The translations under genes and the position numbers were made by a program. Shown here piece by piece: positions 29,333-64,000 of a DNA stretch of 64,000 nt. The stretch is from a virus (Duplodnaviria; Heunggongvirae; Uroviricota; Caudoviricetes), in IMG/VR virus record IMGVR_UViG_3300033075_001233, positions 1 to 64,000 of that record; one strand, written 5' to 3'. A model generated the notes under the pieces. That model did not search any database and was not told the DNA's origin. It saw only the letters and a list, made by a program, of their open reading frames with translations. Within the stretch, counting starts at the first letter, position 1. Every line of letters begins with the position of its first letter.

Positions 29333-29353
29333 TAAAAATCAATAAATATAATT

Positions 29354-46984: not shown

Positions 46985-49900
46985 TGCCTGAAGATCAATT
47001 ACCAAATATAAATAGTCCATTAGAGGACAAATTGGCAAGTATACAAAACGATTGGACAAAATCACAATTTTCTGGAAATGGAAACTCTCAAGGAGGCGAT
47101 CCTACATCAACTCTCTTAAAAAAGATGAATGGTGTAATGTCTGCTAAAGAGTCATATAGCATCCCAGATATTGTATCTCCTAATGTAGTAGACGTATCAG
47201 GAAGATATCCTAAACAATTAGTAGGTTGGGATAATGAAGACCTTTATGGAGATGCTCAATCTGGATGGAGCCAAGCTTGGAGAGGTGTTGTAAAGGGAGT
47301 AGCTCTTGCAGGAACTACCTTCTTACAAGGTACTTTAGGATTGGTATATGGATTAGGTGCAGCAGCCGGAACAGGTGAATTGAATAAATTGTTTAATAAT
47401 GATTTTTCAAATGCTATAGATGATTTCAATAAAACGCTCGAAAATCAATACTTACAGAATTATTACACTAAAAGAGAAAGAGATGCTAAATGGTATGAAC
47501 CAGCTAATCTTTTTTCTACAAATTTTATTTTTGATAAATTTGTAAAAAACCTTGGATTTTCTATAGGTGCTATATATTCAGGTGCTGTTGTAGCAAAAGC
47601 CCTTAGAATGGTTCCAGCAATAAGTTCTCTATTTACAGGCGAAAAAGCTGCTGCTACATTAGCTCAAATAGAAAGTAAATTGTCTACTGTTCCTGCATTA
47701 CAGAGAACAGATGAGATGTATAATATGCTTATAAAAGCATCCGATGCTGCTACAAAAGCTGCTAAATTTGGATCAGGCGTAGAAAGAACAGTGATAGGTA
47801 CATTAGGTGCTGTAACAGAAGGTGGTATAGAAGCCCTTCAAGGACTCAATGAGTATAGAAATTCTTTAATAGATAACTATATAGCTACCAATGGTGTAGC
47901 TCCGGTAGGAGACGAACTTGATAAAATCAATGATTTATCCAGTAGTTTAGGTAATAGTAGATTTCTTCTTAATATTGGATTATTGTCTGCTACCAACTAT
48001 ATAATGCTTCCTAAAATATTAGGATCATCTTATAAAACTTCTAAATCTCTTGCAAATAGAGAGATAAATAATATTGTAAAAAATCAAGAAGGTAAATGGG
48101 TAAGTGCATTATCTCAAGCTCCAAGAGTTGAAAAATTTATTAGAAAATCTACAAATGTTGCAGAACTCTTTTTCTCTCCTACAGAAGGATTTGAAGAACT
48201 TTCTCAATATGCAATTGAGCGTGGTGTAAATGATTATTACTCAAAGGCTTATAAAGGTGAAGGTAGAAGTTTTGCAAACTCTATGCTTGCAGGATACGAC
48301 CAAGCTATAAACAGTAATGAAGGAATGGAACAGTTCCTGCTTGGTGCTTTATCTGGTGGTATGCAACAAGCAGGGATTGTAGGTACATATCAAAATGAAA
48401 AAGGACAAACTAAGGTAGTTATTGGTAAATCAGGTAATATAGGTGAGCGTGGTATTACAGGAACAGGCGGAGAACGTGGTAGAAACACAACATCATTTCT
48501 TGCTCAAATGAATGATCCTAAAAATCAGATGAGATTTAAATCTGATACTTGGGTGAAAGACATGGTAGATGCTACAGCAAGGGGTATAAATCTGCAAAAA
48601 GAAGGTGAAGCTTTTATTCGTCAAGGTGATGTTCTTGAAGCAAAAGATAACGAAGCAGATTACATGCATAACTATCTTGCTGTTCGTATTAAACACGGTA
48701 GATATGATTTAGTGCAGGATGATATAGATAATTTTAAACAACAGGCTTCTACTGACGAAGGACTTAATGTGCTGAAACAACAAGGGTATGCTAATGAGAA
48801 TGATACTCGACAGACATTCCTTGCTCGTGTCAATAACTTTGAAAAACATGCTAAAAACATAGATTCTCTGCATCAATCACTTAATATGGTGTATGGTGCA
48901 AAGATTAACCAAGACGGACAGCGTGTATATTCAGATGAAGTAATTGATAAGATGGTGTATGTTGGCTCAAAAATAGCTGACTATGAACAGCGTATTCCTG
49001 AATTATCTCAACAACTACTTAGTAATCAAATAGTTCTAGGAGATGCATTGAGTAATATCTATAAAAATGGAGTTCCTTCTGCTGATGCTGTAAAAGATGC
49101 TATCAAACAGATAGATGATCTTAGTGTAATTGATAGTAAGAAGGATGAGCTTAAACAATCTCTCCGTGATGTAATAGAATTAACAGGTAGAAGAAAAGAA
49201 TTTCTTGATGAATTTAAAAAACTTAAAACCTCTCCTGAGTCTTTTACTGCTACAGAACCTACTACTGCCGTAGCTACCACTGACAAAAAGAAGATTAAAC
49301 TCAAAACAAAAGATGGTGAAGAAGAACTGGAAATAGGCACTGATTACTATCTTGGTAAAGTGGTTGAGAAAGATAAAGATGGAAACGAAGTGTATCGTTT
49401 TCCTCAAATCACTATTGTAGGGGAAAATGAAGATGGAACAATCAAAGTAAAAACCTCTACAGGGCTTATAAAAGATATAAATCCCTCAGTATTAGAGGAT
49501 TATAAACTTGGAAAAGTATCTGATCTTCAGAATAATAAGAAAGCTAAATTCTATTTTGATCATATTAATGATGTCGTAGAATTCAATTTTGGAAAAGGTA
49601 AAAAACAAAGAGGCAGACTTCAATTCTCTCCTAAAGAGGGAGTGCTGAATTTTGTATATAAAGATGCTAAAGGTAAGATAAGATCAATAGAAGTAACAGG
49701 TGATCAGTTTGTCCCCAAAAAAGGATATACTAATCCTATGATTTCTTTTGTTCGTACTCTTACACCGCAAGAACAATCAGATATAGACAATCTAGCTAAA
49801 GAAGTAGATGCTCGTATTGAAGCAAAACGTGAGGCTAGACTTAAAATCATCTCTGAACTCAGAGAAGCTGCTTATGGTAGGCTTGATAAATTAACAGATA

Positions 49901-52900
49901 AGATTTCTCAAAAGAGAGATCAACTTGAAGGAGTTGAGAAAAACCTTAAAGAACTCGAAGAAAAGCTTCAAAAAGATGACAATTTCCGTAAAGATGGAAA
50001 AGGATTCAAAAAAGCTGGTAAAGAGGTAATCCGTCAGTTGAATATTCTGAGTGGAATGAGAACCCTTTTGAGTAGAGAAATAGAAGAACTCACTGCTGAA
50101 CAAGAAGAGGTTGAATTTAACATATCCTATTTTGAGGATATGGGTCAAAATATTGATGAACTTCCTACAGATAGTAAAGACTTCATAGAAGAACTTAATA
50201 ATCAAGTGCTTGATCTTCAGATACTTCATGAAGAAACAGGTAAACAAATCAATTACTTATCTGGTATATTGAGTAAGGTGGAAGATGCATTAAAAACAGC
50301 AGTTGATTTTGCTCTCAATCTTATTCAAAAATTTGAGAAAAAATATCCCGGATTACCTGTAGCACCTGAATCTCTTAGAAGTTTCTTAAATAAGGATTTA
50401 GAATTCAAAGGAACATGGCCTGATTATCAATCATATCTTGCCACTAATCCTAATCTTTTATCTGATTTACAACAATTTGATAGAGAGTTAGCAGATATTG
50501 ATGAGTTAGATGTTACTCCTAATGAGCGTTCTGTACAAGAACTTAAAGATAATATCGCAAATCTTAATAAAGACCTTGCTCAATATGAGAAAGAAATAAA
50601 AGCAAAATCTGCAATTCTTGATAAATTTGAGGATATAGCTAATGAGTATAAACGTAGAGAAGCGGCTAAACGTCAATATGAGCAGGATAAAGTGCTCCAT
50701 GACGCATTGTTTAAAGCTCAATCTCAATTAGTTGAACAGCCGTCAGATGATAGTACAGATGACGAAATTGCTAAAATAGAAACAAAAGATAAAGAAGCTT
50801 CTAAAAAGAAAGACCTTTCTATCTATCCTATTTCTACAATAGCACCATCAAGGGAAACTGATCCTGAATTTGAGAATAAACCTCATCTTTTAAGAGAGGA
50901 AAAATTTTTAAATAATTACGCTGCTTGTCTTCTTAAAGATGAAAATGGTAATGATATTACTCCTGATTTAAGAGTGCTTGTTATACATAGAAATAATCAA
51001 GCAAAATATGGACTTGACGGACTTGTAGAATTACGTAATCCCAAACAAGCTGATGAATCAGAAGAAGCATATGATAAAAGACTTACAAATGCTGAAAATG
51101 GAACAATTCTTTATTTATACATAAAGAAAGGTGAAGGTGAATGGGAAGTAATAGATGAAAATGGTAAGAAAATAGGAAGCTTTGATAACGAGTTTAATCC
51201 TTCAGGAATTGATATAAATAAGGTGGTAACATCTACAGCTCCGGCAGCTAAAATATCACTTAAAGCAGGATCATTCACTAATAAAGATAATCTTAATTTA
51301 GCTGAAATTGAAAAAGCTTGGCTTGAAAAAAGAAAACAATTATTAGAAGAGGGTGATTTACTCACTGTATCAGGAGTATCTCGTGGCGTAAAACAAGTAA
51401 CAAGTACATCCGATAAGAATCCTATTACCCCCACTCTAACAGATTCAAAAACAGTTGATAAACAGCAAGTTATATTTGTATCTACTTCGGATGTAATTAA
51501 TACACCTAATGATACTATATATTATAAAGCAGGTAGACCCTATTTCCAAATAGGAGATAACGTTATTCTTTTAAATAATAGAAACATTAATGAAAAAGAA
51601 GCAGATGCTATATTTTTAGTATTAAAAGAAGTAGCTACTAAATTCCAAGAATCAATCAAAGCAAATCGTCCTAATCTGGATAAGCAATTAGTCGATTGGT
51701 TAAATTCTATAATCTATTGGTATAGCCCATCTGAGAAAAATCCTACAGCACACAACCATCAGATTTATGTAAAATCTGGTAAATTATTCATATCCGGTGT
51801 AGACACTGGTATATATTTCAATCCTGATAGCTTAGAAGCTAATAGGAAACCTATTATCGAAACATTCCTTAAAGGAAATACCGCAGGACGGGGTACATAT
51901 CACCATGTATCTCATAAGAACTTATCCTCAGATCAGCCCTATATTGAGTACTACACTGAAGACGGTAAAACCTTAAAAACCAGAGAACATAAATCATATC
52001 AGCATTATCTGATCGCTAATAATGTAGTGTCTACAAATGTAAGACCTCAAATGAGCGATACGGATAGCAACATTCGTGGTAGATATGCTATCACTGATAT
52101 GGAACTCTCTCTTCCTAAAGAGGATGTTAAACCTCCCAAAGTTGAAAAAAAGGAAGCAGTACAATCCTCTGGAAAACCTGATAAACTTGCAGAAGCAATG
52201 GCTGCTCTTGCCACTAATAAAGCTAGTAAACAAGGTGGTAATAAAGAACAACCTAAAGCAGGTAGTGTTGGTGTAGGGGGAGAGGTTAGGAGTGTTAATG
52301 ATTTTGCAAATGAGAATGAATCATATAGGGTTATAGTAGGGGATGAAGCGTTTAATGATATAGTAGAAAGTGGAACGGTTAGAACTAACGCAGGAAACAA
52401 GGGAGGGGAAAGTTTATCAGACAAACTAAAAAATCGCCCAACCCTATTCCCGTCTTTCAGCAAAGGGAAAGCGTCTATGGAGTATGCGGCTGAAAACCCA
52501 AACAACTATATAATAGTCACAGAAGATGCAAGCATACAACCATCAAAAGCCGGAAGGCATGGCAAGGGAACGACAATGTTCCCAACTGATGAAAATGGTA
52601 ATCATTTAAAAGAATTAAGCGGTGAAAAAGTAAAAGTGTATAAGCATATTGGGGAAGGTCAATATGTATTAGTTTATGCTAACGGAAAGGTTGTAGAACA
52701 ATCCATCAAAGAACAACCCAAAGCTTCTGTTGCTACACCAGTAATGTCTAAAGGATTAAAACCTACAGATAATGTAAAAGCTAGTATAAAAATTGACGAT
52801 CTTCTTAATAAATTTAAAGATCAAGGTATTACAGGGGATATTTCCAATGATGAAGAATATAGAAGAATTGTAGAAAAGAGTATAGATAATGTAAAAAAAG

Positions 52901-55900
52901 AAGATATTACTGCTGTAAAAGCGTGGTTTGCTAAAAATCTTCCGAATGTACCTCTCAATATTGTAGAGCATATCCTTAAAACTACAGATGGTGGTTTTGC
53001 TTGGGGTAAGTTTTCAAGTGTGGGTGTTACAATGTATGAAAAAGCAAAAGAGGGTACAGGATACCACGAAGCATTTGAAGCAGTATGGAAAATGTTTATA
53101 CCTGTTGAAGATAAACAGAAAATAACATCTGAAATGAGACGTAGGAAAGGCTCATTCTATGATGTTATTACTGGTCAAAATACGGAATATAAATCAGCTA
53201 CAGATACACAATTAAAGGAAAAACTGGCAGATGAATTTGCAGAATACGTGCAAACAAATGGTGCTATTTCTGAAAAAATAAAAGGTCAACCTTGGATAAT
53301 CAGAATATTCAGGGCTTTAAAAGAACTTTTTGAAAAACTTATTTCTCCACAAAACAATATAGATCAATTATTTAAGAATATAAATAGTGGTCAATATGCT
53401 ACAAAACCAGTTAATTTGGAATCAGTGGTGGGGGATGAATATAGTAGGGTGGCGGATTTATCACATCAGCTTACAAAAGAACTGATGGAAGATATTACAT
53501 CAAAGATTTTAAATAATTTCTTTGGTGCTAATGCTACATTATCTTTAGCTAATTTATCAGATAATAAGGAAATACCCCTTGATGCTTATTATGATGCTAT
53601 TAAACCAATGCTACTTAATAGATTAATGTCATTAGCAAATATTTCACTTGGGAAAGGTGAAGAAGAACTTGCTCTTAATTATCTTACTATTTTAGATAAT
53701 GTAAATGATAATTGGGAAGATGTTGTCAAATTAAATAAAGAATATTTAAAAACATTTGGTCTTACAAGCAGTCATGAACAAGCCTCTGATAATCTTCCTG
53801 AAAAGGTGAAAGAAGCAAAACAGGCTGAATTTGAAGATGATAATGATGGTATTCAAGATGATGATGAACCTGAATTTGAACAGGAGAATAAATCTCAATT
53901 AGAATATGATAGGGATATATTTACAATTTCTGGTAAGAAAAACGCTTCTGCCGGAATAAGGTTATTATTTGCTACACTTAGGGATGCTAAATTTATTCGT
54001 CAGTCTAAAGATGATGTGTCCGTAATTCCAGCTATAGAATTTGAAAGATCATCACTTAATGGATTCAAATTTGTGCAATATGCAAGAGTATTCAATCAAG
54101 TAGCAAACGCATTAGTTAATACTAATAAGATGGAAAATCTTATTAAAAAGCTTGTCAACCATGCTAAAACAAATGCTCCTATTGTAGACCTTTTAAGTCC
54201 TAATAAATTAAATATAAATAGAACAACAGGTAAAATAAATTACAATTCATTATCATATAATGAATGGAGAATACTCTTGGATTTTGTAAAAACCATGAGT
54301 AAACAATCCCCTACTGCCCTCATATATGATATGAAAGGTAATACAGCCAAGCTTATTCCCGGTAATAAATATTCAGGAATTGAACAAATTAAGAGGAATT
54401 TTGTAAAGAATGTAAAAAATAACAAAGAGTTGTTCTCTTTTGATAAAAAGAAAAAGACATTTGTTGTCAATCCTGAATTCTTTAAAAAGAACCCAACACC
54501 AACCAATGACAAAGCATATATAGATTTTGCAAATTCTATAGGTATTAAAACTGTAGACGGTGAATTATTATCGCTGGCTATGTTAAAAGCTATGCCTTTA
54601 TTTCAAAAAGCAAAATTCAAAAGTGCTTTATCTAGGGTGTATACTCAATTAAAAAAACAAGACCCTTTATTTGATACATCAAATAAGGCATTACAGATTG
54701 AAACTCCTCTGAATGAAATAAGTATTGCTATCATTTCCGCAACAAAAGATGACGGTTCTAACACCTTCTTAAACGTACTGAGAAAACCAGTACAGTCAGT
54801 GGTGTTGAATAACCCTCTGTCTACTTTCTTTAATAATTTTAATTCTGTTTCCTCCCTTGACGATCTACAAAAAGAGGAGCAAGGACTTACCGATGGATTT
54901 TCTAAAAATTCAGTGATATTACAAAGAGGTGGTAAATTCTTTAACGAAGATGGTGATCGTACAGATGAGAAGATTGAAGTGGGATATATTGACGGTATAA
55001 AAACTCCAAGAAACTCTAAACAATCTTCTAAATTATCCCTTATTCAAAGAAGACTCCTTTCTTTCAATCTTAATTTACAAGGTTGGTTTGTTCCTATTAC
55101 CAATGGTGATAAGAAAACAGAATGGGTATTATCTTTAGGTAATCATATATCCTTCAATCAAGTAGTTGCTGGAACACATTGGGATTCAATATATTCTACA
55201 TTCCATAACTATCTGAAAACAGAAATGGAAGTAGCGCAAGTAGATGATGCTAATACACTATCTGTTCTGGATAAACAAAAAAGGCGTGGAAATCTTAGGT
55301 TTTTCCTTAATATTCTTCCTGAAAATATTACAAAAAAAGCAAAAGTTGTAATAGATAATCTCGGGGATATTGATGAATTTATTGAAGAAAATGAGAAAAA
55401 CATCAATAGCGCAATACGTAAATTCCTAGAAAAAGAAGCCAGTAGAACACGTACAGAATTCCAAATATATAATATATTATCAGCAGATGATAATGGAAAT
55501 TATATATTTGATGGAATTGATGAGAAATTCGTAATGGATAACATCAACGATCAAGGTGTAAATAAATTCAGCGAAGAGCAAGTTGATAATGTAATTCTCT
55601 ATAGAACTGTTAATCAGGTGATTAACAATATAGAAATGCATAAACTTGTTATTGGTGATCCTGCATTTATGTCCGATCCTGCAAAACGTATTCCCGGAGC
55701 AATGGGTGGTATAAATCAGACTACCTACGGATCACATGAATTTAATACGCATTTTTCAACATTAGCAAATAGAACTGATGTTAATTCTAGCTCAATACAA
55801 TTAGAACCTACTGATTTAGGATATACTCCTTTCTCAGATGATGTTTCTATTGTAATATATCAAGACGTTATCGTAGAAGGTAGGGTAGAAGGTAGTGATT

Positions 55901-58900
55901 ATAAGAACACAAATGAGGTGGATGGTGGCTCAAAAATGAACCTTTCTGCATATAGAGAATTGAAAATGAGATCAGCAGAATGGACCGATGAACAGGAAAA
56001 ACAATATCAATATCAAATGGCATTCTTCAGAGATAGAATGTCAAAACAGGGAAAATATGACTATTCTTCAAAAGAATTAAAAGAACATGACGTTAACCTT
56101 TTAAAACAAGGTCAGCCTCAAGAAGGTATTTTTGAAATTATCAAACCTAAAGGATGGGGTCAGAATACAGCATCTCCATATAAAGATATAGTGTTCCTGA
56201 AAACATCAGCTCAACCTATTATCCCCACTGTAGCAAAAGACACAAACGATGAACTCCTTCTTCTGAAAATGATGAATGAAGGTATAAAAATTGCAGCTTT
56301 TGAATCAGCAGTAAAAGTAGGGGTACGTAGCACTGAACCAGCATATGTAGATGGTAAATTTAACGAAAATAAATACAACCCTGATGCAATACTCTATCCT
56401 TCTTGGAAAGATTTAGGTATTCAGGTGGAAACCCAATTCTCTCAAGGTAAGAATAAACTGACATTAGGTAGTCAGCTTACAACACTCGCTACACTTAACT
56501 TGTTATCTGGCGGCGTACCTCAAGGATTTACAGCTACAGAATGGAGCAAACTTTCTGAAGAAGAAAGAATGGCAAAATCTGAAATATACAGAGAGGTAGT
56601 TACAAATAATCAGATTCTTGTAGAACTTACAAATAATGGATATGTAGAACTTCTCGATAAATTAGGAATAGAAGAAGATGAAGATGGAAATTATGAAATA
56701 GTTGATTATCAACGAGTTGTAGATTTCCTTAAAGAACAGGCTCGTGACATGGATGATAATACAAAAGCTGCTCTTAAAGTGGACGATGTATTAAATTCAT
56801 TAGCAGTACCTCTTGAGGCTATTCCTACATACACTCAGTTGAAAGCAATTCTTTATTCTATTGTAGATAAAAACATAGCATCCCCTAAAACATCAGGTAT
56901 TGGTTTAGTGCAGATGCCATCTACATTTACAGAAAATGAAGCAAGAACTACCCTTGTTGGTAATTCCACTTATAAATTCTACACTAAAGAAGAATCTTGG
57001 ATTGAGGTAAGTTTACCTGCATGGTTTAGAGATCAGCTTGAGAAATTTTATATAAATAATAAAAAACCAATTCCTTCAGAAGAAGAGTTGCTTAAATTAT
57101 TGAATGATGCTGATATATTAAATGGTATAGGTTTCCGTATCCCCACTCAGGAAATGAACTCTGTAGAGGTATTTAAAATTAAGAGTTTTCTTCCTAAAGT
57201 GATGGGTAACACTATTATTGTACCTTCAGAAATCACCACAAAAGCAGGTAGTGACTTTGACATTGATAAACTTAATGCATATCTTAAAAATGTTGTAATT
57301 ACCAAAACAGGTAAAATATCTAAAGTGGCATCATTTAATTCTCAGGAAGAAGCCGCTGATCATTTTGGAAGTGAATATGAAAACAGTATTCAAAAAGAGA
57401 TTGACAAAATTGAAAAATATGATGATTTCCGTGAAACTCTTTTAGCTGTATTCAACGCAATAGAAAATATCAAGGGTGATATTACATTAGATAAAATCAA
57501 AAAAGCACTCACTGAAGACCTGAAAGAATTCTATGATGTGCATATGACTCTTCTTAATGAAATTATAGATCAAGCTGCTGAAGAACAATTAAATCCTTCA
57601 CAATATATTCAAAATCAGATAGATAAGCTTTCCCGTAAAAAAGGAAAACTGAATGCTAAGTTATTTAATGAACTGGCTAAAGAAATGTACATTAAAAAAT
57701 ATACAAGAAAATCTCTTGAGAACGCATACTACGAATCTCTCGAAAGGCTTGTTCAGCTTCCTGAAAACTTTGAAAGGTTAATACAAATCAACACTACAAA
57801 AAATCTTGAAGAAATTAAGAATAACCTTAATAAGGCATTATTCACTGAGGATGAAATTAAACAAAACAACATCAATACAGGTGAAAAACTTGCATTGAAC
57901 TATCTTCCTATTATCTCTCCTTACACTCTTGATGAAATCAGGCATAATCTGGTTACAGGTAAGGATGGTGTTGGTATTGCTGCTGCTGCTCAAAAGAGCA
58001 ACTCAATTATGCAACGTACTCAGGTGGTGATTGATTCAAGCAGAGTAAATCTTCTTAATGATATTGATCCATTAAGAACAGAATTAATAGGTGATGGCGT
58101 TATACGTTTTCCTCATAATAAAATTAATGGAAAACCCACTATATCAATGTCTAAAACCGCAGATGGTAAGAAGTATATTTCAGATATTATTTCTGAGTAT
58201 ATTAACGGATTTGTGGACGTTGTAAAGAATACATTTATCATTGAGATGGGTGTTACCACTCGTACAGCAGGTACGTTCTTATTTATGGATAGGCTTGGTA
58301 ATAACACTGAACATACTACGTTTTTCATGAATCAGCCTATTATCAGGCAATATTTAAAATTCCTTGATGCAAATAAGATAAACCCAATTAGAAACGAAAA
58401 AACAATAAAACAAATTTATTCTATCTGGGGTAATGTTAAATATACAGGAAAAGACACGCTTCCTACAGCTAATCAATTACTGGATAATATTAAAGAATAT
58501 AAAGTAAAAAATAGGGATTTTAATAATTTATCTAAAGATTTCGTAGAAGAGCAATCTAAAATATTTAATGAATTCCTGAAATATCAGGAGATGGCATCTG
58601 ATTTATTTACCCTTATGCAGGGTATAAATTGGGATACAGCCCATATGTCTGATCCTGAACAATTCCTTCTGAAGGATGTTAAATATGATAAGGCAAATAA
58701 TACATTATTTACTCCTGCTTCAGAGATATTGAAGAATGTATTTATTGGAAATACACGCCAAAAATTGATGGATTCTAGGGATGCAATAGGTGGTTTTATA
58801 GCCATAGAACATCCTAATGTACGTGAAGTGCTGGATACATTAAAGCGTAAATTCATTAGTATGAGCTTCTTCCCTAAGCCTGATGTATATAGTGCTATTG

Positions 58901-60000
58901 CTAAACGTATAAATAACTCCTTCTTAAACTATATCTTACAGGTAAAAGGTGGATATAATAGAACTCAGATTGAGCAAGTTCTTTTGGATGAGCAAAATGG
59001 AGCAGCTTCCCTGCTTGAAGATTTACAAATTGCCACTAAAAAAGATTCTGTTTTACATTCAATTCTGAAGCAATTCTCCATTGAAAGAAGAGGTAATGAT
59101 GCTAATAGTGTGAAAGCAATTATCTTTAAGAAAAGTGGAAATGATAAATATGACAGAGATACTGATATTGACAATTTTAGAATTTTAAAAGAAAATGCAT
59201 ACACTCAGGAATTATATAAAAAACTGGTGAGAGCAGCTCTTTTACAATCTGGTGTGCAGTATTCTCCTATCTCATACTCACATTTAATACCTTCTGAAGA
59301 CTATGCAAAAGCATTATCTAGTCTTGTGAATAATCTGTCTACATACACTGATCTGGATAAATTCCTCACATCTAAATCATTTGCTAGAAACAACTGGAGC
59401 AATTCAGATGTAGCTAAACCATTGATGATCAGCGAAAAAAGAAAGGGTATATCAGATATGGGTAGAGTGTGGGCTATTCCTTTTATTCTTCCTAAACAGC
59501 TTTCTAAGTTCCCAAAAGGAGCAATAATGAAATCAACAATGTTCTTAGGAGAATACGCTAAGTATCAACCACTTAACTCAATGGGTAGAATGGTTTTTGT
59601 ACCTGATCTTACATATATGATAAATAAAAAGGATGCGTTTGAGAAAAACAATCCTATTTTAACAAAAACATATCTGTATGAACTTGTCAAGGATGAAACG
59701 GGAAAACCTCTTACAATTACAGAAAATTACAAAAATAAGAAAGATGAAGAGGTACAAAGCGTAAGTTATCTGTATAAAGCAATTAATGCTTGGGGAGACG
59801 GTATGTATGCACAAGAGTATTATGATGCTGAACGTTCTTCACAAATTGAAAACAATACATTCAAAGTGGATGAAACAGTTGTAAATGATACAGCTATTTA
59901 TACAGCATTACGTGGAAAATCTGTATCTTTACAGGATAAAAAGACAAAGACTTCTGATAATAAATCAACTCAGGATAAAATAAACGACTGTTTAGGATAA
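46984..60000 (+). CDS. giant protein, 4338 aa, with a C-terminal DPBB-RNAP-like DFDID motif (candidate virion RNA polymerase fused to a large N-terminal region)
   Basis: Uninterrupted 13-kb ORF. SDFDIDKLNAY near residue 3420 gives a DxDxD triad. The N-terminal region has a Gly-zipper hydrophobic segment GVALAGTTFLQGTLGLVYGLGAAAG and there are long coiled-coil tracts in the middle. Confidence 0.6.
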   Translation: MPEDQLPNINSPLEDKLASIQNDWTKSQFSGNGNSQGGDPTSTLLKKMNGVMSAKESYSIPDIVSPNVVDVSGRYPKQLVGWDNEDLYGDAQSGWSQAWRGVVKGVALAGTTFLQGTLGLVYGLGAAAGTGELNKLFNNDFSNAIDDFNKTLENQYLQNYYTKRERDAKWYEPANLFSTNFIFDKFVKNLGFSIGAIYSGAVVAKALRMVPAISSLFTGEKAAATLAQIESKLSTVPALQRTDEMYNMLIKASDAATKAAKFGSGVERTVIGTLGAVTEGGIEALQGLNEYRNSLIDNYIATNGVAPVGDELDKINDLSSSLGNSRFLLNIGLLSATNYIMLPKILGSSYKTSKSLANREINNIVKNQEGKWVSALSQAPRVEKFIRKSTNVAELFFSPTEGFEELSQYAIERGVNDYYSKAYKGEGRSFANSMLAGYDQAINSNEGMEQFLLGALSGGMQQAGIVGTYQNEKGQTKVVIGKSGNIGERGITGTGGERGRNTTSFLAQMNDPKNQMRFKSDTWVKDMVDATARGINLQKEGEAFIRQGDVLEAKDNEADYMHNYLAVRIKHGRYDLVQDDIDNFKQQASTDEGLNVLKQQGYANENDTRQTFLARVNNFEKHAKNIDSLHQSLNMVYGAKINQDGQRVYSDEVIDKMVYVGSKIADYEQRIPELSQQLLSNQIVLGDALSNIYKNGVPSADAVKDAIKQIDDLSVIDSKKDELKQSLRDVIELTGRRKEFLDEFKKLKTSPESFTATEPTTAVATTDKKKIKLKTKDGEEELEIGTDYYLGKVVEKDKDGNEVYRFPQITIVGENEDGTIKVKTSTGLIKDINPSVLEDYKLGKVSDLQNNKKAKFYFDHINDVVEFNFGKGKKQRGRLQFSPKEGVLNFVYKDAKGKIRSIEVTGDQFVPKKGYTNPMISFVRTLTPQEQSDIDNLAKEVDARIEAKREARLKIISELREAAYGRLDKLTDKISQKRDQLEGVEKNLKELEEKLQKDDNFRKDGKGFKKAGKEVIRQLNILSGMRTLLSREIEELTAEQEEVEFNISYFEDMGQNIDELPTDSKDFIEELNNQVLDLQILHEETGKQINYLSGILSKVEDALKTAVDFALNLIQKFEKKYPGLPVAPESLRSFLNKDLEFKGTWPDYQSYLATNPNLLSDLQQFDRELADIDELDVTPNERSVQELKDNIANLNKDLAQYEKEIKAKSAILDKFEDIANEYKRREAAKRQYEQDKVLHDALFKAQSQLVEQPSDDSTDDEIAKIETKDKEASKKKDLSIYPISTIAPSRETDPEFENKPHLLREEKFLNNYAACLLKDENGNDITPDLRVLVIHRNNQAKYGLDGLVELRNPKQADESEEAYDKRLTNAENGTILYLYIKKGEGEWEVIDENGKKIGSFDNEFNPSGIDINKVVTSTAPAAKISLKAGSFTNKDNLNLAEIEKAWLEKRKQLLEEGDLLTVSGVSRGVKQVTSTSDKNPITPTLTDSKTVDKQQVIFVSTSDVINTPNDTIYYKAGRPYFQIGDNVILLNNRNINEKEADAIFLVLKEVATKFQESIKANRPNLDKQLVDWLNSIIYWYSPSEKNPTAHNHQIYVKSGKLFISGVDTGIYFNPDSLEANRKPIIETFLKGNTAGRGTYHHVSHKNLSSDQPYIEYYTEDGKTLKTREHKSYQHYLIANNVVSTNVRPQMSDTDSNIRGRYAITDMELSLPKEDVKPPKVEKKEAVQSSGKPDKLAEAMAALATNKASKQGGNKEQPKAGSVGVGGEVRSVNDFANENESYRVIVGDEAFNDIVESGTVRTNAGNKGGESLSDKLKNRPTLFPSFSKGKASMEYAAENPNNYIIVTEDASIQPSKAGRHGKGTTMFPTDENGNHLKELSGEKVKVYKHIGEGQYVLVYANGKVVEQSIKEQPKASVATPVMSKGLKPTDNVKASIKIDDLLNKFKDQGITGDISNDEEYRRIVEKSIDNVKKEDITAVKAWFAKNLPNVPLNIVEHILKTTDGGFAWGKFSSVGVTMYEKAKEGTGYHEAFEAVWKMFIPVEDKQKITSEMRRRKGSFYDVITGQNTEYKSATDTQLKEKLADEFAEYVQTNGAISEKIKGQPWIIRIFRALKELFEKLISPQNNIDQLFKNINSGQYATKPVNLESVVGDEYSRVADLSHQLTKELMEDITSKILNNFFGANATLSLANLSDNKEIPLDAYYDAIKPMLLNRLMSLANISLGKGEEELALNYLTILDNVNDNWEDVVKLNKEYLKTFGLTSSHEQASDNLPEKVKEAKQAEFEDDNDGIQDDDEPEFEQENKSQLEYDRDIFTISGKKNASAGIRLLFATLRDAKFIRQSKDDVSVIPAIEFERSSLNGFKFVQYARVFNQVANALVNTNKMENLIKKLVNHAKTNAPIVDLLSPNKLNINRTTGKINYNSLSYNEWRILLDFVKTMSKQSPTALIYDMKGNTAKLIPGNKYSGIEQIKRNFVKNVKNNKELFSFDKKKKTFVVNPEFFKKNPTPTNDKAYIDFANSIGIKTVDGELLSLAMLKAMPLFQKAKFKSALSRVYTQLKKQDPLFDTSNKALQIETPLNEISIAIISATKDDGSNTFLNVLRKPVQSVVLNNPLSTFFNNFNSVSSLDDLQKEEQGLTDGFSKNSVILQRGGKFFNEDGDRTDEKIEVGYIDGIKTPRNSKQSSKLSLIQRRLLSFNLNLQGWFVPITNGDKKTEWVLSLGNHISFNQVVAGTHWDSIYSTFHNYLKTEMEVAQVDDANTLSVLDKQKRRGNLRFFLNILPENITKKAKVVIDNLGDIDEFIEENEKNINSAIRKFLEKEASRTRTEFQIYNILSADDNGNYIFDGIDEKFVMDNINDQGVNKFSEEQVDNVILYRTVNQVINNIEMHKLVIGDPAFMSDPAKRIPGAMGGINQTTYGSHEFNTHFSTLANRTDVNSSSIQLEPTDLGYTPFSDDVSIVIYQDVIVEGRVEGSDYKNTNEVDGGSKMNLSAYRELKMRSAEWTDEQEKQYQYQMAFFRDRMSKQGKYDYSSKELKEHDVNLLKQGQPQEGIFEIIKPKGWGQNTASPYKDIVFLKTSAQPIIPTVAKDTNDELLLLKMMNEGIKIAAFESAVKVGVRSTEPAYVDGKFNENKYNPDAILYPSWKDLGIQVETQFSQGKNKLTLGSQLTTLATLNLLSGGVPQGFTATEWSKLSEEERMAKSEIYREVVTNNQILVELTNNGYVELLDKLGIEEDEDGNYEIVDYQRVVDFLKEQARDMDDNTKAALKVDDVLNSLAVPLEAIPTYTQLKAILYSIVDKNIASPKTSGIGLVQMPSTFTENEARTTLVGNSTYKFYTKEESWIEVSLPAWFRDQLEKFYINNKKPIPSEEELLKLLNDADILNGIGFRIPTQEMNSVEVFKIKSFLPKVMGNTIIVPSEITTKAGSDFDIDKLNAYLKNVVITKTGKISKVASFNSQEEAADHFGSEYENSIQKEIDKIEKYDDFRETLLAVFNAIENIKGDITLDKIKKALTEDLKEFYDVHMTLLNEIIDQAAEEQLNPSQYIQNQIDKLSRKKGKLNAKLFNELAKEMYIKKYTRKSLENAYYESLERLVQLPENFERLIQINTTKNLEEIKNNLNKALFTEDEIKQNNINTGEKLALNYLPIISPYTLDEIRHNLVTGKDGVGIAAAAQKSNSIMQRTQVVIDSSRVNLLNDIDPLRTELIGDGVIRFPHNKINGKPTISMSKTADGKKYISDIISEYINGFVDVVKNTFIIEMGVTTRTAGTFLFMDRLGNNTEHTTFFMNQPIIRQYLKFLDANKINPIRNEKTIKQIYSIWGNVKYTGKDTLPTANQLLDNIKEYKVKNRDFNNLSKDFVEEQSKIFNEFLKYQEMASDLFTLMQGINWDTAHMSDPEQFLLKDVKYDKANNTLFTPASEILKNVFIGNTRQKLMDSRDAIGGFIAIEHPNVREVLDTLKRKFISMSFFPKPDVYSAIAKRINNSFLNYILQVKGGYNRTQIEQVLLDEQNGAASLLEDLQIATKKDSVLHSILKQFSIERRGNDANSVKAIIFKKSGNDKYDRDTDIDNFRILKENAYTQELYKKLVRAALLQSGVQYSPISYSHLIPSEDYAKALSSLVNNLSTYTDLDKFLTSKSFARNNWSNSDVAKPLMISEKRKGISDMGRVWAIPFILPKQLSKFPKGAIMKSTMFLGEYAKYQPLNSMGRMVFVPDLTYMINKKDAFEKNNPILTKTYLYELVKDETGKPLTITENYKNKKDEEVQSVSYLYKAINAWGDGMYAQEYYDAERSSQIENNTFKVDETVVNDTAIYTALRGKSVSLQDKKTKTSDNKSTQDKINDCLG

Positions 60001-60015
60001 AACAATAAAATAATT

Positions 60016-63000
60016 ATGGCCTGTCCCAATATAAACTCTCCTCAGTGGAAGGATTTAGTAAGTAAAATAGGTGTATTTGAAGCAATGAGGGAATTCATCA
60101 AAAATGGTGAAGAAATTCCAGATGCTGCAAATTATCAAGAAACATTTTCAGGTATTAATGCTACGTTAACAGTAGTAGGAGCACTCCAGAAAATGACAAG
60201 AAACTCGTATCCTTCTAATCAGGTACAAGGATTTTATAATGACTTGATAAAATTAGGCACACCTAAGAACCAATTAGATTTATTAAAAGACCATATAGAA
60301 AGGAATAATATAAAACAAATCAATGTTAATGATTTGATTGTCAGTATTTTATCTGAAATGAACTACACAATTGAAATTAATACTGCTAAAGAAACACAAA
60401 TTTTACCAACAAGAAAATTAACTGAAGAAGAAGAGTTGGCTGCTCAATATGTAGACCCCTATATGATGGGTGTTCCAAGTAAAGAACAGCAAGTTCCTAC
60501 ACAACACCATGCTAATTTAACTGTACCGGGGGGTACTAATTATACAGAAAATGAAATAGCTACACCAGCTATTGTTCCTTCTATTAAAGGTCATGCACAA
60601 TTTAGTACAGATAATGGTATAGGTTGGTTTAGAAGTGATGATAGGTTGGCTGAAGATACAAAAACTGATAATATTGATGGCACAATAACAGATTATACAG
60701 GATATAATGTAAATAAAATTCCTTCAGGATATACTATATATAATAAAAATAGAGGATGGCTTAGGGATGCTACTGGTAAACCTTTAGATTTTAAAACTGA
60801 AAAAGAAGCAAGTGATTATCTTAATAAGTTAATTAATCAAGGTATAACTAATAATAGTTCTATTATAACTAAAAATGATAAGATTATATTTGGACACCCT
60901 ACTATTGGAAAAAGTTATTTAAAACAAAAAGGAAGTAATGATTTTATAACTTTAGATGATGATTATGCAGATGAAGTAAATGCTTTTATAGATGCTAATA
61001 GAGGTTCTGAAACAAGACAAGAATACAAAGGTAGAAAACCTAAAGAGTATAATGAATTTATGCTTAATCTATTTGATAGATTAAAATTACAAGCAAAAAA
61101 AGAAGGTAAAAGATTATTTGTTTCAAATACTAATATTCTTAAAGAAAGAATGTCTGAATTTGATAAAGTAATTACTATACCTAAAGATGAATTTAAGAAA
61201 AGATTTGATGCTAGGGGAGCTACTTATGGATTTGAAGATTGGAAATCAGATATAGATACTACTATAGCTAAAGTAGATAAATCTAAAGTAATTAGTACAA
61301 CAGGATATTTATCTGATTTATTAGAAGGAAATCCTAAAACTCGTAGAATATTAGAAGTACAATCTGATTTATTTCAAAAAGGTAGAGATAGGGAAGATTT
61401 ATCAAAAGATGCTTGGATAGCTGGAACTAAAGATGGATATTCTGTTTGGGAAAAAGGAAAAGGAAAGATATCTAAAGATTTTACAACTGAAGATGAAGCA
61501 AGAACATTTTTGAAAAATAGTTCTCTAAATTCTGAAAATCAATTCCTACAGCTCCTAAACAAAGACAATAACTGGGTAACATTCTTTGTTAAATCTATTA
61601 TACAAGATAGTGCTAAGAAAGGTTATGAAAAAGTGTTGTTCCCTTCTGGAAATACTGCTGCAAAAGTAGAAGGGCATAGTACATTAGAAACTTTAAAAGA
61701 AATTACACAAGATAGAATTAAAGAATTAAAAAATAATCTTGAACGTACTAAAGATGATGAATGGATTAAAGGAGTTATAGAATATGAATATGAAAATAAT
61801 GAATATGATCCTGAAACAGGTCCAGTAAGGTCTTCCGTTGAACATATTAGAAAAACTCTTGTAAATCGCTATACTTATGAATTAAAAGAAAAAGAAAGAG
61901 AATTAGATGATATTATAAATGGAAGAACTAAGTTAGGAGTTATTCATAGTTTTTATGAAAATACAATAACTAATATCCTTAAAAAAAAAGGATACAATCC
62001 TACTCAAATCACTGATGAATACGGTAATACATGGAATGAAGTAGAAATAAATGAACTTGCAAATAACACTATATTATTTCAAAAACAGGGAATAAAACAA
62101 TCTAAAGCATCTGCAAAAACGATAGCTAAGGTAAAAGAATTCCTCAAAAGAATAGGCGTAGACATACAAGCCCTCGATACAGAACGATATGGAGGTATTA
62201 ATGGTGTTGCCAATTTCTTAGAAGGATTCATACAACTTGCAGAAGGTAAAGAAGATGTTGCTATCACTGAAGAAGCAATGCACTTTCTTGTAGAAATATT
62301 AGAACTTACCAATCCTACATTATTCAAACAAATGATGAATAAGATAGGTAAGTATAACGTATTCTCAAAAGTGATGAAATTATATTCACAAGACTCTAAA
62401 TATCAAACAGATGGAAAACCTGATATTCTTAAGCTTAAAAAAGAAGCTATAGGTAAACTCCTTGCTGAATATTATATACAGTCTGAAGATGGTCAATCTG
62501 AAGCTCCTGATTTGATGATTCAAACAAAATCATGGTGGGAGCAGATCATTGACGCTATTAAGAAATTCCTGAAAATTGCAGATTTTAATCCTTTTCAAGA
62601 AGCATTAGATAGTTTTAATGACTTAAATAACACAAATTCACCTACAAAAATATTAGCTAAAAGGATATTAGATAGTTTGTCAGATGACAATATGTTTAAA
62701 AAAGCCATTAAAGATACATACGATAATGGTGATTATAAAGCTGTAGTAACAACCTTCTATCAACAACTTACAGATAAGTCAGTATTTGGTATGAGTCCTT
62801 ATGAATCTACTGTAAAAATGCTTGGTGGAAATGAAGAATTGGCTAAAGAGATTATATCTTTAGGTAATCCTTTTTATCAATTATCTGAAGAAAATAGAAA
62901 GAAACAAAAAGAAATTTCAGATAAACTTGATCAAAAAATTAAAGATTTTGAGATAAGGAAAGTGACAGGTAAAGCTGAATTTGAAGAGCAAGACGATATA

Positions 63001-64000
63001 AACTACTATGAGTGTAAAAAAGATGGTAAGATAGGTAAGGTGGCAAAGCGTGTAACGGATTTTGTTAAAGAAACAAAACGTCCGGATGTTCTTGCAAAAT
63101 TTGAAAATGCTTCAGCTAAAGAAAAGAACACATATAAGCAAAAAGCAGAACACGGTACAGCATTTCACAACGATGCTGAATCAATCATAAAAGCATCCCT
63201 CACTTCTGATGGATATTTAAAACCTATTGATCAGATTAATGTAGATGCTATCACTCCAAATCTTCCCCAAGCTGGATTTTTAGCATTAAAGAACTATCTC
63301 GTTGGTGAAATAGATAATGAGGGTAATATCATTCCGGGTATATTGTATACACAATTTCCAACAGGAACCCTCTTCAAAGTTGAGCAAATTATCTACGACG
63401 AAAAAAGAGACGTTGCTGGAACAATTGACCTTATGGGTATCACCCCCGAAGGTAAGATAATGATATATGATTGGAAAACCAAATTCCTTGATACAAAGAA
63501 ATTTGACGATGTTCCTTTCTATTCTCAGGCGGATTATAGAATACAGCTTGCTCAGTATAAAGCAATGATGTATAGATATGGATTAAAACCTAAAGAGGAC
63601 GTTATTGTAGCTCAGGCAATTCCTATCATATATAAAGGTAAAATAGACTCCCTAAATGGTGATGTCACCCTTACAGATATAATATTTCCAGAAATAGATA
63701 TAAAACAAGAAACTAGACGTTACCTTCTTCCTGTACCTATTGCTGAACAATCTTCAGGAAATACAAAAGTAGACCAATATATTGATGCACTTAACCAATT
63801 ATATCAGGTTTTGTACAAACAAAAAGATGTAAATAAAGAGCTTAAAAATGAGCAATTAAATGCAATTTCTGGTGCAATTCGTGAATTACAGGTGAAACAA
63901 GAATTTGGTCCTCTTGCAGAACAAGGACTTATTTTCTTAAAAAGTGCAGAACGTGTTATAGAAGATATAAACACTCAACTGAAAAATGAAGATGGTACTT
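60016..64000 (+). CDS. second giant protein (more than 1328 aa, truncated by the window) with P-loop kinase-like and RecB-family PD-(D/E)xK nuclease motifs
   Basis: Walker A IIFGHPTIGKSYLKQKG followed by LDDDYADE and RFDARG (nucleotide/polynucleotide-kinase-like layout). Later GTAFHNDAE, TIDLMGI, IMIYDWKTK and QLAQY map to motifs I, II, III and the QxxxY motif of the RecB/lambda-exo/Cas4 nuclease superfamily. Confidence 0.55.
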   Translation, partial: MACPNINSPQWKDLVSKIGVFEAMREFIKNGEEIPDAANYQETFSGINATLTVVGALQKMTRNSYPSNQVQGFYNDLIKLGTPKNQLDLLKDHIERNNIKQINVNDLIVSILSEMNYTIEINTAKETQILPTRKLTEEEELAAQYVDPYMMGVPSKEQQVPTQHHANLTVPGGTNYTENEIATPAIVPSIKGHAQFSTDNGIGWFRSDDRLAEDTKTDNIDGTITDYTGYNVNKIPSGYTIYNKNRGWLRDATGKPLDFKTEKEASDYLNKLINQGITNNSSIITKNDKIIFGHPTIGKSYLKQKGSNDFITLDDDYADEVNAFIDANRGSETRQEYKGRKPKEYNEFMLNLFDRLKLQAKKEGKRLFVSNTNILKERMSEFDKVITIPKDEFKKRFDARGATYGFEDWKSDIDTTIAKVDKSKVISTTGYLSDLLEGNPKTRRILEVQSDLFQKGRDREDLSKDAWIAGTKDGYSVWEKGKGKISKDFTTEDEARTFLKNSSLNSENQFLQLLNKDNNWVTFFVKSIIQDSAKKGYEKVLFPSGNTAAKVEGHSTLETLKEITQDRIKELKNNLERTKDDEWIKGVIEYEYENNEYDPETGPVRSSVEHIRKTLVNRYTYELKEKERELDDIINGRTKLGVIHSFYENTITNILKKKGYNPTQITDEYGNTWNEVEINELANNTILFQKQGIKQSKASAKTIAKVKEFLKRIGVDIQALDTERYGGINGVANFLEGFIQLAEGKEDVAITEEAMHFLVEILELTNPTLFKQMMNKIGKYNVFSKVMKLYSQDSKYQTDGKPDILKLKKEAIGKLLAEYYIQSEDGQSEAPDLMIQTKSWWEQIIDAIKKFLKIADFNPFQEALDSFNDLNNTNSPTKILAKRILDSLSDDNMFKKAIKDTYDNGDYKAVVTTFYQQLTDKSVFGMSPYESTVKMLGGNEELAKEIISLGNPFYQLSEENRKKQKEISDKLDQKIKDFEIRKVTGKAEFEEQDDINYYECKKDGKIGKVAKRVTDFVKETKRPDVLAKFENASAKEKNTYKQKAEHGTAFHNDAESIIKASLTSDGYLKPIDQINVDAITPNLPQAGFLALKNYLVGEIDNEGNIIPGILYTQFPTGTLFKVEQIIYDEKRDVAGTIDLMGITPEGKIMIYDWKTKFLDTKKFDDVPFYSQADYRIQLAQYKAMMYRYGLKPKEDVIVAQAIPIIYKGKIDSLNGDVTLTDIIFPEIDIKQETRRYLLPVPIAEQSSGNTKVDQYIDALNQLYQVLYKQKDVNKELKNEQLNAISGAIRELQVKQEFGPLAEQGLIFLKSAERVIEDINTQLKNEDGT

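What the first reader, a model, noticed from the sequence alone, without database searches (positions are those of the whole stretch)
60016..64000. Following giant ORF combines a P-loop kinase-like module with a RecB-family PD-(D/E)xK nuclease module
Read directly from the sequence: GHPTIGKS (Walker A), then LDDDYADE and an Arg-containing lid-like segment, as in polynucleotide or nucleoside kinases. About 800 residues later there is a complete RecB/Cas4/lambda-exo motif set: GTAFHNDAE (motif I), TIDLMGI (motif II Asp), IMIYDWKTK (D-x-K) and QLAQY (QxxxY). A kinase plus nuclease inside a probable virion cargo protein is unusual. It could process host or phage nucleic acid ends on entry, act in anti-defense, or degrade host DNA. 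The ORF continues past the window.
Basis: seen in the sequence. Interest (0 to 1): 0.75.

Follow-up and report, generated by a model that had tools for sequence, protein, structure and literature searches.

The report
Crass-like phage cargo protein: nuclease plus kinase cassette
The last giant gene of the injected-protein block of an uncultured crAss-like phage carries a conserved, apparently active RecB-type nuclease that was already noted for such proteins, plus a horizontally acquired kinase-fold cassette of an undescribed family, and the two modules look independent rather than a working pair.

Summary
Both modules are real. The ORF (60016 to beyond 64000; about 2,300 aa by comparison with a 97%-identical relative) is the last giant gene of a crAss-like phage cargo/transcription block. 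It follows a 4,338-aa protein carrying the RNA-polymerase DFDID motif.

Residues ~963-1260 are a RecB-like PD-(D/E)xK nuclease. It reaches Pfam PDDEXK_1 marginally and matches a PHROG exonuclease family. The AF2 model is closest to MGME1, Cas4, Exo5 and RecE. H1051, E1123, D1138, D1152, K1154, Q1177 and Y1181 are nearly invariant in 150 representatives of at least 303 clusters, almost all giant proteins. Yutin et al. 2021 already noted such a domain.

This module is a mobile cassette inserted in a loop. None of the 150 nuclease homologues has it. Its DNA is 92% identical to a cassette in an otherwise unrelated phage. Elsewhere it is fused to ART-PolyVal or stands alone between GIY-YIG homing endonucleases. 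Kinase-nuclease coupling is therefore unsupported.

Aside: these cargo proteins are almost cysteine-free except at their termini, which suggests head-to-tail disulfide linkage.

The parts
60016..64000 (+). Giant ORF, first 1,328 of about 2,306 codons. It is the last gene of the cargo/transcription block, of the gp49-type RNAP-associated cargo protein class.
60022..60024 (+). Cys3 (MAC...). This is the near-universal N-terminal cysteine of the family, and one of only two Cys in the 1,328 residues seen.
   Evidence: 115 of 125 full-length homologues have Cys at residues 2-7; in 92 it is the only Cys
60016..60645 (+). N-terminal domain, first half (residues 1-210, ending GIGWFRSDD). Function unknown. 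It is a separate 229-aa ORF in relative L003.
60646..61335 (+). Inserted segment (residues 211-440) between GWFRSDD and KTRRILEVQSD. Homologue P0014 has only about 22 residues here, and L003 has a GIY-YIG homing endonuclease gene and a gene split here.
60865..61335 (+). P-loop kinase-fold cassette (residues 284-440).
60892..60915 (+). Walker A GHPTIGKS. G293, H294, P295, G298 and K299 are invariant.
60952..60975 (+). LDDDYADE after strand 2 (DxD-type motif). D314 is invariant and Y317 is 41/42.
61201..61215 (+). Lid RFDAR (RxxxR). R396 is 46/46 and R400 is 45/45.
61336..62082 (+). Resumption of the interrupted N-terminal domain (KTRRILEVQSDLFQKGR...), followed by a variable helical region.
62083..62610 (+). 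Conserved region shared with crAss001 gp49 (residues ~690-865; 31% identity over 160 aa).
62902..63795 (+). RecB-like PD-(D/E)xK nuclease domain (residues ~963-1260).
   Evidence: PDDEXK_1 22.9 bits vs cut-off 22; phrog_298 5e-8; AF2 pLDDT 88; MGME1, Cas4, Exo5 and RecE fold matches
63154..63180 (+). Motif I GTAFHNDAE. G1047 is 146/148, H1051 is 148/148, E1055 is 110/148.
63382..63384 (+). E1123 on core strand 1 (146/150).
63421..63441 (+). Motif II TIDLMGI. D1138 is 150/150.
63457..63483 (+). Motif III IMIYDWKTK. D1152 is 149/151 and K1154 is 150/151.
63544..63558 (+). Motif IV QLAQY. Q1177 is 147/150 and Y1181 is 148/150.
46984..60000 (+). Preceding 4,338-aa cargo protein. It carries the RNAP-type DFDID motif (nt 57253-57267) and a Cys four residues from its C-terminus (nt 59989-59991).

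Best explanation
**What it is.** The ORF is the last gene of the giant-protein ('transcription' or cargo) block of an environmental crAss-like phage. It belongs to the class of crAss001 gp49 and cr108_1 gp052. These proteins are packed in the capsid and expelled into the cell with the DNA and the virion RNA polymerase.

**The nuclease.** The conserved enzymatic core is a RecB-like PD-(D/E)xK nuclease with an intact active site, without the Fe-S cluster of Cas4 and AddB. It is ancestral to a large family of 1,400-2,400-aa proteins.

**The kinase cassette.** The P-loop module is a separate, recently acquired cassette of an undescribed P-loop-kinase-fold family. It sits in a permissive loop of the N-terminal domain. 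In the closest relative the same spot holds a GIY-YIG homing endonuclease that splits the gene. The cassette moves between cargo proteins of different phages. Its invariant Lys, Asp and two Arg residues suggest an active kinase that phosphorylates a hydroxyl group on an unknown substrate. I read it as an accessory injected effector, not a partner of the nuclease.

**Inferred mechanism (not shown).** On entry the only free DNA ends are those of the phage genome. The nuclease most likely resects one strand. That would expose single-stranded DNA, which is the only template the crAss-type virion RNA polymerase uses efficiently in vitro. It could also expose terminal repeats for annealing.

**Terminal cysteine (inferred).** Cys3 probably forms a disulfide with the C-terminal Cys of the preceding RNAP protein. 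The cargo proteins would then leave the virion as one chain.
For: **Shown**
- Context. TerL and giant proteins match Crassvirales only distantly. The order muzzle-like protein (phrog_37948), Cys-free 1,181-aa and 828-aa proteins, DFDID giant, then this ORF mirrors crAss001 gp44-gp50. The same order is seen for homologue P0014 and for cr108_1.
- Nuclease. Supported. In one search, 11 of 28 members individually hit PDDEXK_1.
- Kinase fold and invariant residues.
- Insertion and mobility. P0014 bridges the site with about 22 aa. Window and L004 are 94-97% identical in the flanks but unrelated across 60631-61560. The 462-nt cassette is 92% identical to L005, where it follows a different protein.
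- Other partners of the cassette. ART-PolyVal fusions. Stand-alone copies between GIY-YIG genes. The same insertion site in P0165 and P0167.
- Independence. No cassette in 150 nuclease homologues. No nuclease in cr124_1 gp02, which carries the cassette.

**From the literature**
- gp49 is in virions (PMC10172136).
- gp66 RNAP transcribes ssDNA and denatured DNA but not dsDNA (10.1101/2020.03.07.982082).
- A PDDEXK domain occurs in large transcription-block proteins (PMC7886860).

**Terminal cysteines:**
Against: - No biochemical data exist for any family member.
- Homology to the virion-proven gp49 is limited to about 160 residues at 31% identity, and crAss001 gp49 itself lacks the nuclease.
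- PDDEXK_1 is only marginally above its cut-off for the isolated domain (22.9 vs 22 bits) and below it for the whole protein (20 bits).
- An exonuclease co-injected with a linear genome could be harmful, so its activity must be controlled in ways I cannot see.
- The ssDNA-template role is pure inference. Many crAss-like phages have the RNAP but no nuclease in these proteins.
- The kinase substrate is unknown.
Confidence: 0.6

Rival explanations
1. Kinase and nuclease form an end-processing pair. A PNK-like 5'-kinase phosphorylates 5'-OH ends so that a lambda-exo/RecE-like, 5'-phosphate-dependent exonuclease can digest them.
Against: None of 150 nuclease homologues carries the cassette. The cassette is found with ART-PolyVal, after a lysozyme-like protein, or alone. 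In close relatives the two modules lie in different polypeptides. The best fold matches are dephospho-CoA and shikimate kinases. No PNK or AAA_33 profile hit was found.
Confidence: 0.12
2. The injected nuclease is a host-takeover or competition weapon. It degrades the host chromosome, plasmids or superinfecting phage DNA.
For: It would be delivered before any phage gene expression. Injected DNases are proposed for polyvalent proteins (PMC5512222). The active site is strongly conserved.
Against: The closest folds (MGME1, Exo5, Cas4, RecE) are end-dependent exonucleases, and a circular chromosome offers no ends. The enzyme would meet the phage's own ends first. No immunity or inhibitor partner is evident.
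Confidence: 0.18
3. The protein is not cargo. The nuclease works in replication, recombination or packaging inside the infected cell.
For: crAss-like phages have other PDDEXK nucleases in replication and structural blocks. Virion presence was not shown for this family.
Against: The gene sits last in the cargo block directly after the RNAP giant in the window, P0014 and cr108_1. It shares a domain with virion protein gp49. It shows the extreme cysteine depletion and terminal-Cys pattern of the cargo proteins, unlike the neighbouring tail proteins.
Confidence: 0.08
4. The P-loop cassette is a selfish or decaying passenger that spreads with homing endonucleases and has no enzymatic role for the phage.
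For: It sits at a homing-endonuclease hotspot. It is patchily distributed. In L005 it follows an in-frame TAA and was called only as a fragment lacking the Walker A.
Against: Walker A Lys, D314, R396, R400 and W409-K410 are invariant across 42-51 homologues down to about 30% identity. That indicates purifying selection on a catalytic site.
Confidence: 0.1

Closest known systems
RNAP-associated cargo proteins of crassviruses (crAss001 gp49; phi14:2 gp67-type; cr108_1 gp052)
   Same: Same position at the end of the giant-gene block after the RNAP protein. Shares a helical region with gp49 (31% over 160 aa). Full-length but weak homology to cr108_1 gp052, including the nuclease. Single N-terminal Cys.
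   Different: crAss001 gp49 has no detectable nuclease. The window protein is about 950 aa longer and carries the extra N-terminal domain and the P-loop cassette.
[quoted passage not shown] 2021, PMC7886860)
   Same: Same kind of domain in the same kind of protein.
   Different: The paper only mentions it. This work adds the size of the family (at least 303 clusters at 50% identity), the invariant active site, and the closest folds.
RecB-like exonucleases MGME1, Exo5, Cas4, RecE, AddA/AdnA nuclease domains
   Same: Same core fold and the motifs GxxxH, D, DxK and QxxxY.
   Different: About 15% identity. No Fe-S cysteines (the module holds a single, non-conserved Cys at residue 1000). Embedded in a 2,300-aa phage protein. 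Activity and polarity are untested.
Polyvalent proteins of phages and conjugative elements (Iyer et al. 2017, PMC5512222)
   Same: Several unrelated effector-type domains in one large polypeptide delivered with the DNA. Homologues of the cassette are fused to ART-PolyVal. That paper records P-loop (zeta-like) kinases in such proteins.
   Different: That paper states that ParB-like DNases are not accompanied or displaced by other DNase domains. A PD-(D/E)xK nuclease and this kinase family are not in its catalogue as far as I could read.
P-loop kinases with an acidic motif after strand 2 (dephospho-CoA kinase, shikimate kinase, gluconate kinase, PNK, chloramphenicol phosphotransferase)
Phage genes split by free-standing homing endonucleases (for example nrdA/mobE of Aeromonas phage Aeh1; recalled from my own knowledge, not checked here)
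   Same: In relatives L003 and L007, GIY-YIG/NUMOD3 genes sit between fragments of the same protein.
   Different: Here each break is accompanied by a Cys near the new C-terminus and a Cys near the new N-terminus.

Membership tests
RecB-like PD-(D/E)xK nuclease (Pfam PDDEXK_1) | Profile match at or above the curated cut-off | tested here: inconclusive
   The isolated domain scores 22.9 bits against a cut-off of 22. The whole ORF scores 20 bits. Of 28 homologues, 11 hit at E<=0.01. phrog_298 exonuclease matches at 5e-8.
RecB-like PD-(D/E)xK nuclease (Pfam PDDEXK_1) | Alpha-beta-beta-beta-alpha-beta core with D on strand 2, (D/E)xK on strand 3 and QxxxY on the next helix | tested here: met
   In the AF2 model (numbering of the 321-aa module, ORF residues 940-1260) the strands are 180-189, 194-203 and 209-218 and the helix is 229-249. 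D1138, D1152, K1154, Q1177 and Y1181 are 98-100% conserved. Top folds are MGME1, Cas4, Exo5 and RecE.
RecB-like PD-(D/E)xK nuclease (Pfam PDDEXK_1) | Metal-dependent nuclease activity | not testable with these tools
   Needs biochemistry.
Cas4 / AddB subgroup | Four-cysteine Fe-S cluster flanking the nuclease core | tested here: not met
   The module has a single, non-conserved Cys (residue 1000). Family members usually have no Cys outside the N-terminus.
P-loop kinase class | Walker A GxxxxGK[ST] | tested here: met
   GHPTIGKS. G293, G298 and K299 are invariant.
P-loop kinase class | Lid with Rx(2-3)R | tested here: met
   RFDAR. R396 is 46/46 and R400 is 45/45, on the helix after strand 4.
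P-loop kinase class | Kinase-type fold (five-stranded sheet with an inserted substrate-binding helical region) | tested here: met
P-loop kinase class | Phosphotransfer activity | not testable with these tools
   Needs biochemistry.
AAA_33 / T4-type polynucleotide kinase / zeta toxin | Profile match to the family | tested here: not met
   For the module, P0004 and P0005, no Pfam kinase or P-loop family appears at E<=5; P0004 and P0005 give only unrelated chance-level hits. NCBIfam gives no hit at E<=1. A PDB profile search gives only chance hits.
Polyvalent / injected multi-effector proteins | Two or more unrelated effector domains in one large polypeptide of a phage | tested here: met
   Kinase-fold cassette and nuclease in one ORF. 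Homologues of the cassette are fused to ART-PolyVal.
Polyvalent / injected multi-effector proteins | Packaged in the virion and delivered into the host | not testable with these tools
   Inferred from synteny and from gp49 mass spectrometry in crAss001.
Crassvirus cargo/transcription block protein | Encoded in the giant-gene block next to the DxDxD RNAP protein, downstream of the muzzle gene | tested here: met
   DFDID lies at residue 3424 of the preceding ORF. A muzzle-like ORF matches phrog_37948. The same order is seen in L005, P0014 and cr108_1.

The most novel reading that the evidence does not exclude
The RecB-like nuclease of this cargo family may be the missing factor that gives the crAss-type virion RNA polymerase its template. 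Travelling linked to the polymerase, through a disulfide between the polymerase's C-terminal Cys and this protein's Cys3, it would resect the entering genome end. That would expose the single-stranded DNA which is the only template the polymerase transcribes efficiently in vitro. More generally, crassvirus cargo proteins may be ejected as a redox-cleavable chain held head-to-tail by terminal cysteines. This would explain why genes fragmented by homing endonucleases stay functional.
Probability: 0.2. Interest if true: 0.8.

Novelty: new variant of a known kind. Interest (0 to 1): 0.5.

Why it matters
Crassviruses are among the most abundant gut and environmental phages, yet what their huge injected proteins do is largely unknown.

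- **Nuclease.** A strictly conserved exonuclease-type active site in a large family of these proteins gives a concrete candidate for an open problem. That problem is how a virion RNA polymerase that prefers single-stranded DNA starts transcription on an incoming double-stranded genome.
- **Kinase cassette.** It adds an uncatalogued enzyme family to the injected effector repertoire. It also shows module shuffling at homing-endonuclease hotspots.
- **Terminal cysteines.** If the pattern reflects disulfide chaining, it bears directly on how megadalton amounts of protein are ordered and pulled through a phage tail.

Tried and rejected
**Searches that returned nothing useful**
- Megablast of the region against 50,697 phage records: no match.
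- Word-index protein search with the nuclease module: nothing at E<=1e-3, although relatives exist. The exhaustive search was needed.
- The search for related loci with the nuclease: only the one close relative.
- tblastn of the module and of the family consensus against phage records: only cr108_1.
- PDB sequence searches for the nuclease, the P-loop profile and the full relative: no meaningful hit.
- Exact-match scans for the window's own contig, to read the rest of the ORF: none in metagenome contigs. Viral contigs gave only another relative. The C-terminal 978 residues are therefore inferred from L003.

**Ideas tested and dropped**
- Group I intron around the GIY-YIG gene of the relative: no Rfam match, so I treat it as free-standing. 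There are no tRNAs in the window.
- Membrane-spanning segments in the C-terminal 1,000 residues: none by hydropathy.
- Identity of the N-terminal domain that hosts the insertion, and of the 4,338-aa protein: no Pfam family.
- Cas4-like Fe-S nuclease: rejected for lack of cysteines.
- Zeta-toxin or PNK membership: rejected for lack of any profile signal.


Full report
**Observation.** The frame opening at ATG 60016 stays open to the end of the window, giving 1,328 codons. A viral contig that is 94-97% identical in the flanks (IMGVR_UViG_3300033070_001161; loci L003 and L004) continues for 978 residues beyond the window end. The full protein is therefore about 2,306 aa.

**Context.**
- The window is AT-rich (about 32% GC).
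- Its terminase and giant proteins match Crassvirales only distantly.
- Upstream lie a muzzle-like structural protein (phrog_37948), then proteins of 1,181 and 828 aa, then a 4,338-aa protein with the RNA-polymerase-type DFDID motif at residue 3424.
- This order mirrors crAss001 gp44-gp50.
- In crAss001, gp45, gp46, gp47, gp49 and gp50 were detected in virions and are called cargo proteins (PMC10172136).
- Residues 705-864 of the ORF match crAss001 gp49 at 31% identity.
- cr108_1 gp052, the last gene of that phage's giant block, is a weak full-length homologue.
- Homologue P0014 also directly follows a 3,812-aa giant.

**Nuclease module (residues ~963-1260).**
- As an isolated domain it reaches Pfam PDDEXK_1 (22.9 bits, cut-off 22, E 1e-4) and PHROG 298 'exonuclease' (5e-8). 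In the whole ORF it scores just below the cut-off (20 bits). NCBIfam gives a weak match to the AddA nuclease region.
- An exhaustive HMMER search of 1.84 billion representatives found 303 proteins at E<=1e-3. Nearly all of the 150 listed are 1,400-2,400 aa, with the module embedded.
- Across those 150, Y998, G1047, H1051, E1123, D1138, D1152, W1153, K1154, Q1177 and Y1181 are 97-100% conserved. Eleven of 28 members individually hit PDDEXK_1.
- An AF2 model (pLDDT 88, pTM 0.85) places E1123, D1138 and D1152/K1154 on three consecutive strands and QxxxY on the following helix.
- The best Foldseek matches are MGME1 (probability 1.0), Cas4, Exo5, the Cas4-like ACE1, RecE and AdnA. TM-scores are moderate.
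- There are no Fe-S cysteines.
- Yutin et al. [quoted passage not shown] A 2023 review repeats this and says the function is unclear.
- Among 50,697 deposited phage genomes, only cr108_1 carries this version.

**P-loop module (residues 284-440).**
- No Pfam, NCBIfam or PDB-sequence profile recognises it. The only hit is a weak one to the function-unknown phrog_4182.
- An AF2 model from eight sequences is confident (pLDDT 86, pTM 0.81).
- All 50 listed Foldseek matches are P-loop kinases: dephospho-CoA kinase, AK6, dCK, adenylate, thymidylate and gluconate kinases.
- A profile search found 60 homologues. Across the 42-51 sequences that cover each site, G293, H294, P295, G298, K299, D314, R396, R400, W409 and K410 are invariant or nearly so.
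- From established knowledge of P-loop kinases, a Walker A plus an acidic motif after strand 2 plus an Rx(2-3)R lid is the signature of kinases that phosphorylate hydroxyl groups. The substrate cannot be named.

**The two modules are not a unit.**
- None of the 150 nuclease homologues has the cassette, even at E<=10.
- cr124_1 gp02 has the cassette but no nuclease.
- Homologue P0014 joins GWFRSDD to KTRRILEIQSD with about 22 residues. The window has 230 residues there, so the cassette is an insertion into a loop of an N-terminal domain of unknown function.
- At the same point the close relative L003 has a stop, a GIY-YIG/NUMOD3 homing endonuclease gene and a restart. Nucleotide identity drops from 94-97% to nil across 60631-61560. 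No intron was detected.
- The cassette's 462 nt are 92% identical to a 128-kb crAss-like contig (L005) whose flanks are unrelated. There it follows, through an in-frame TAA, a 1,115-aa lysozyme-like protein.
- Other copies are fused to ART-PolyVal (PF18760), stand alone between two GIY-YIG genes, or sit at the same insertion site in proteins that end before the nuclease.
- This is the behaviour of a shuffled effector cassette in polyvalent, injected proteins (PMC5512222). That paper lists zeta-like P-loop kinases, but not a PD-(D/E)xK nuclease.

**Mechanism.**
- Shown: domain identities, conservation of catalytic residues, the insertion and its mobility, and the gene context.
- Inferred: virion packaging and ejection.
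- Inferred: the nuclease acts on DNA ends. The phage's own genome ends are the only ends available at entry.
- Inferred: resection could supply the single-stranded template that phi14:2 gp66 requires in vitro, or expose terminal repeats.
- Rivals (kinase-nuclease end processing, host DNA destruction, an intracellular non-cargo role, an inert passenger cassette) are listed with their evidence in the rival explanations.

**Terminal cysteines (aside).**
- The window's cargo ORFs hold 4 Cys in 7,675 residues, against about 2% Cys in the neighbouring tail proteins.
- Two of those four are Cys4336, four residues from the end of the RNAP giant, and Cys3 of this ORF.
- Of 125 full-length homologues, 115 have a Cys at residues 2-7. 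In 92 it is the only Cys in about 1,900 residues.
- Proteins encoded just upstream end with a Cys 1-4 residues before the stop.
- Fragments created by homing-endonuclease splits typically have exactly two Cys, one at each end.
- In crAss001, gp47 has a single Cys at 2339 of 2341. gp50 has Cys5 and Cys2404 of 2412. gp49 has a single Cys5.
- This fits head-to-tail disulfide linkage of the cargo proteins. crAss001 virions are known to use structural disulfides. No statement about cargo linkage was found.

**Verdict.** The domain assignments are right. The functional pairing is unsupported. The nuclease part is already known in outline, while the kinase cassette is a new family in a known kind of protein. 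Interest is moderate.

Noticed in passing
window 59989-59991 (Cys4336 of ORF 46984-60000) and 60022-60024 (Cys3 of ORF 60016); also L001 (crAss001 gp47, gp50, gp49), L003, L005, L006, L007, L008, L009: The cargo proteins are almost free of cysteine (4 in 7,675 residues here; 0.02% outside the N-terminus in 125 homologues). The exceptions are a Cys at residues 2-7 and/or 1-9 residues from the C-terminus, in a complementary order along the gene block. In crAss001, gp47 has it at the C-terminus only, gp50 at both ends, and gp49 at the N-terminus only. This suggests head-to-tail disulfide chaining of ejected proteins. I found no report of it.
   Followed up: partly
L003 1150-1644; L007 87-701 and 1447-2127: Free-standing GIY-YIG/NUMOD3 homing endonuclease genes sit between fragments of the giant cargo proteins. 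In L003 the site is exactly where the window carries the P-loop cassette. Identity between window and relative falls near the site (88% and 85%, against 94-97% further away), as expected for homing-associated co-conversion.
   Followed up: partly
L005 9698-10378: The P-loop cassette continues in frame after the TAA stop of a 1,115-aa lysozyme-like cargo protein, inside an A-rich run (AGT AAA TAA AAA AGA). There is no start codon before the Walker A. This could be readthrough, slippage, a sequencing error or a fresh nonsense mutation.
   Followed up: no
L002 5755-6900 (cr124_1 gp02): The annotated gene has many in-frame stops under code 11, which fits the stop-codon reassignment reported for some crAss-like lineages. 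This also explains the many short 'fragment' proteins among database homologues of the cassette.
   Followed up: no
window 60016-60645 plus 61336-61700: The domain that hosts the insertion (GHAQFSTDNGIGWFRSDD ... KTRRILEVQSDLFQKGR ... NNWVTFFVKSIIQDSAKKGYEKVLFPSG) is conserved in the longer family members. It matches no Pfam family, even in the uninterrupted homologue P0014.
   Followed up: partly
L003 ORF 1647-7217, last ~15 residues, and homologues P0010-P0049: The family shares a conserved C-terminal tail (...AK[DE]LGI.V.T[EQ]SR..) at the very end of a conserved region of about 1,000 residues that has no recognisable domain and no hydrophobic segments. It may be a packaging or ejection signal.
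   Followed up: no
window 46984-60000: The 4,338-aa ORF carrying the DFDID RNAP motif has no Pfam match at all. It seems to unite, in one polypeptide, what crAss001 encodes as separate giant proteins.
   Followed up: no
window 28283-31255: Two adjacent structural-block ORFs start MPCTDC... and MSCQDC... and are cysteine-rich (12 and 19 Cys). This contrasts sharply with the Cys-free cargo proteins downstream.
   Followed up: no
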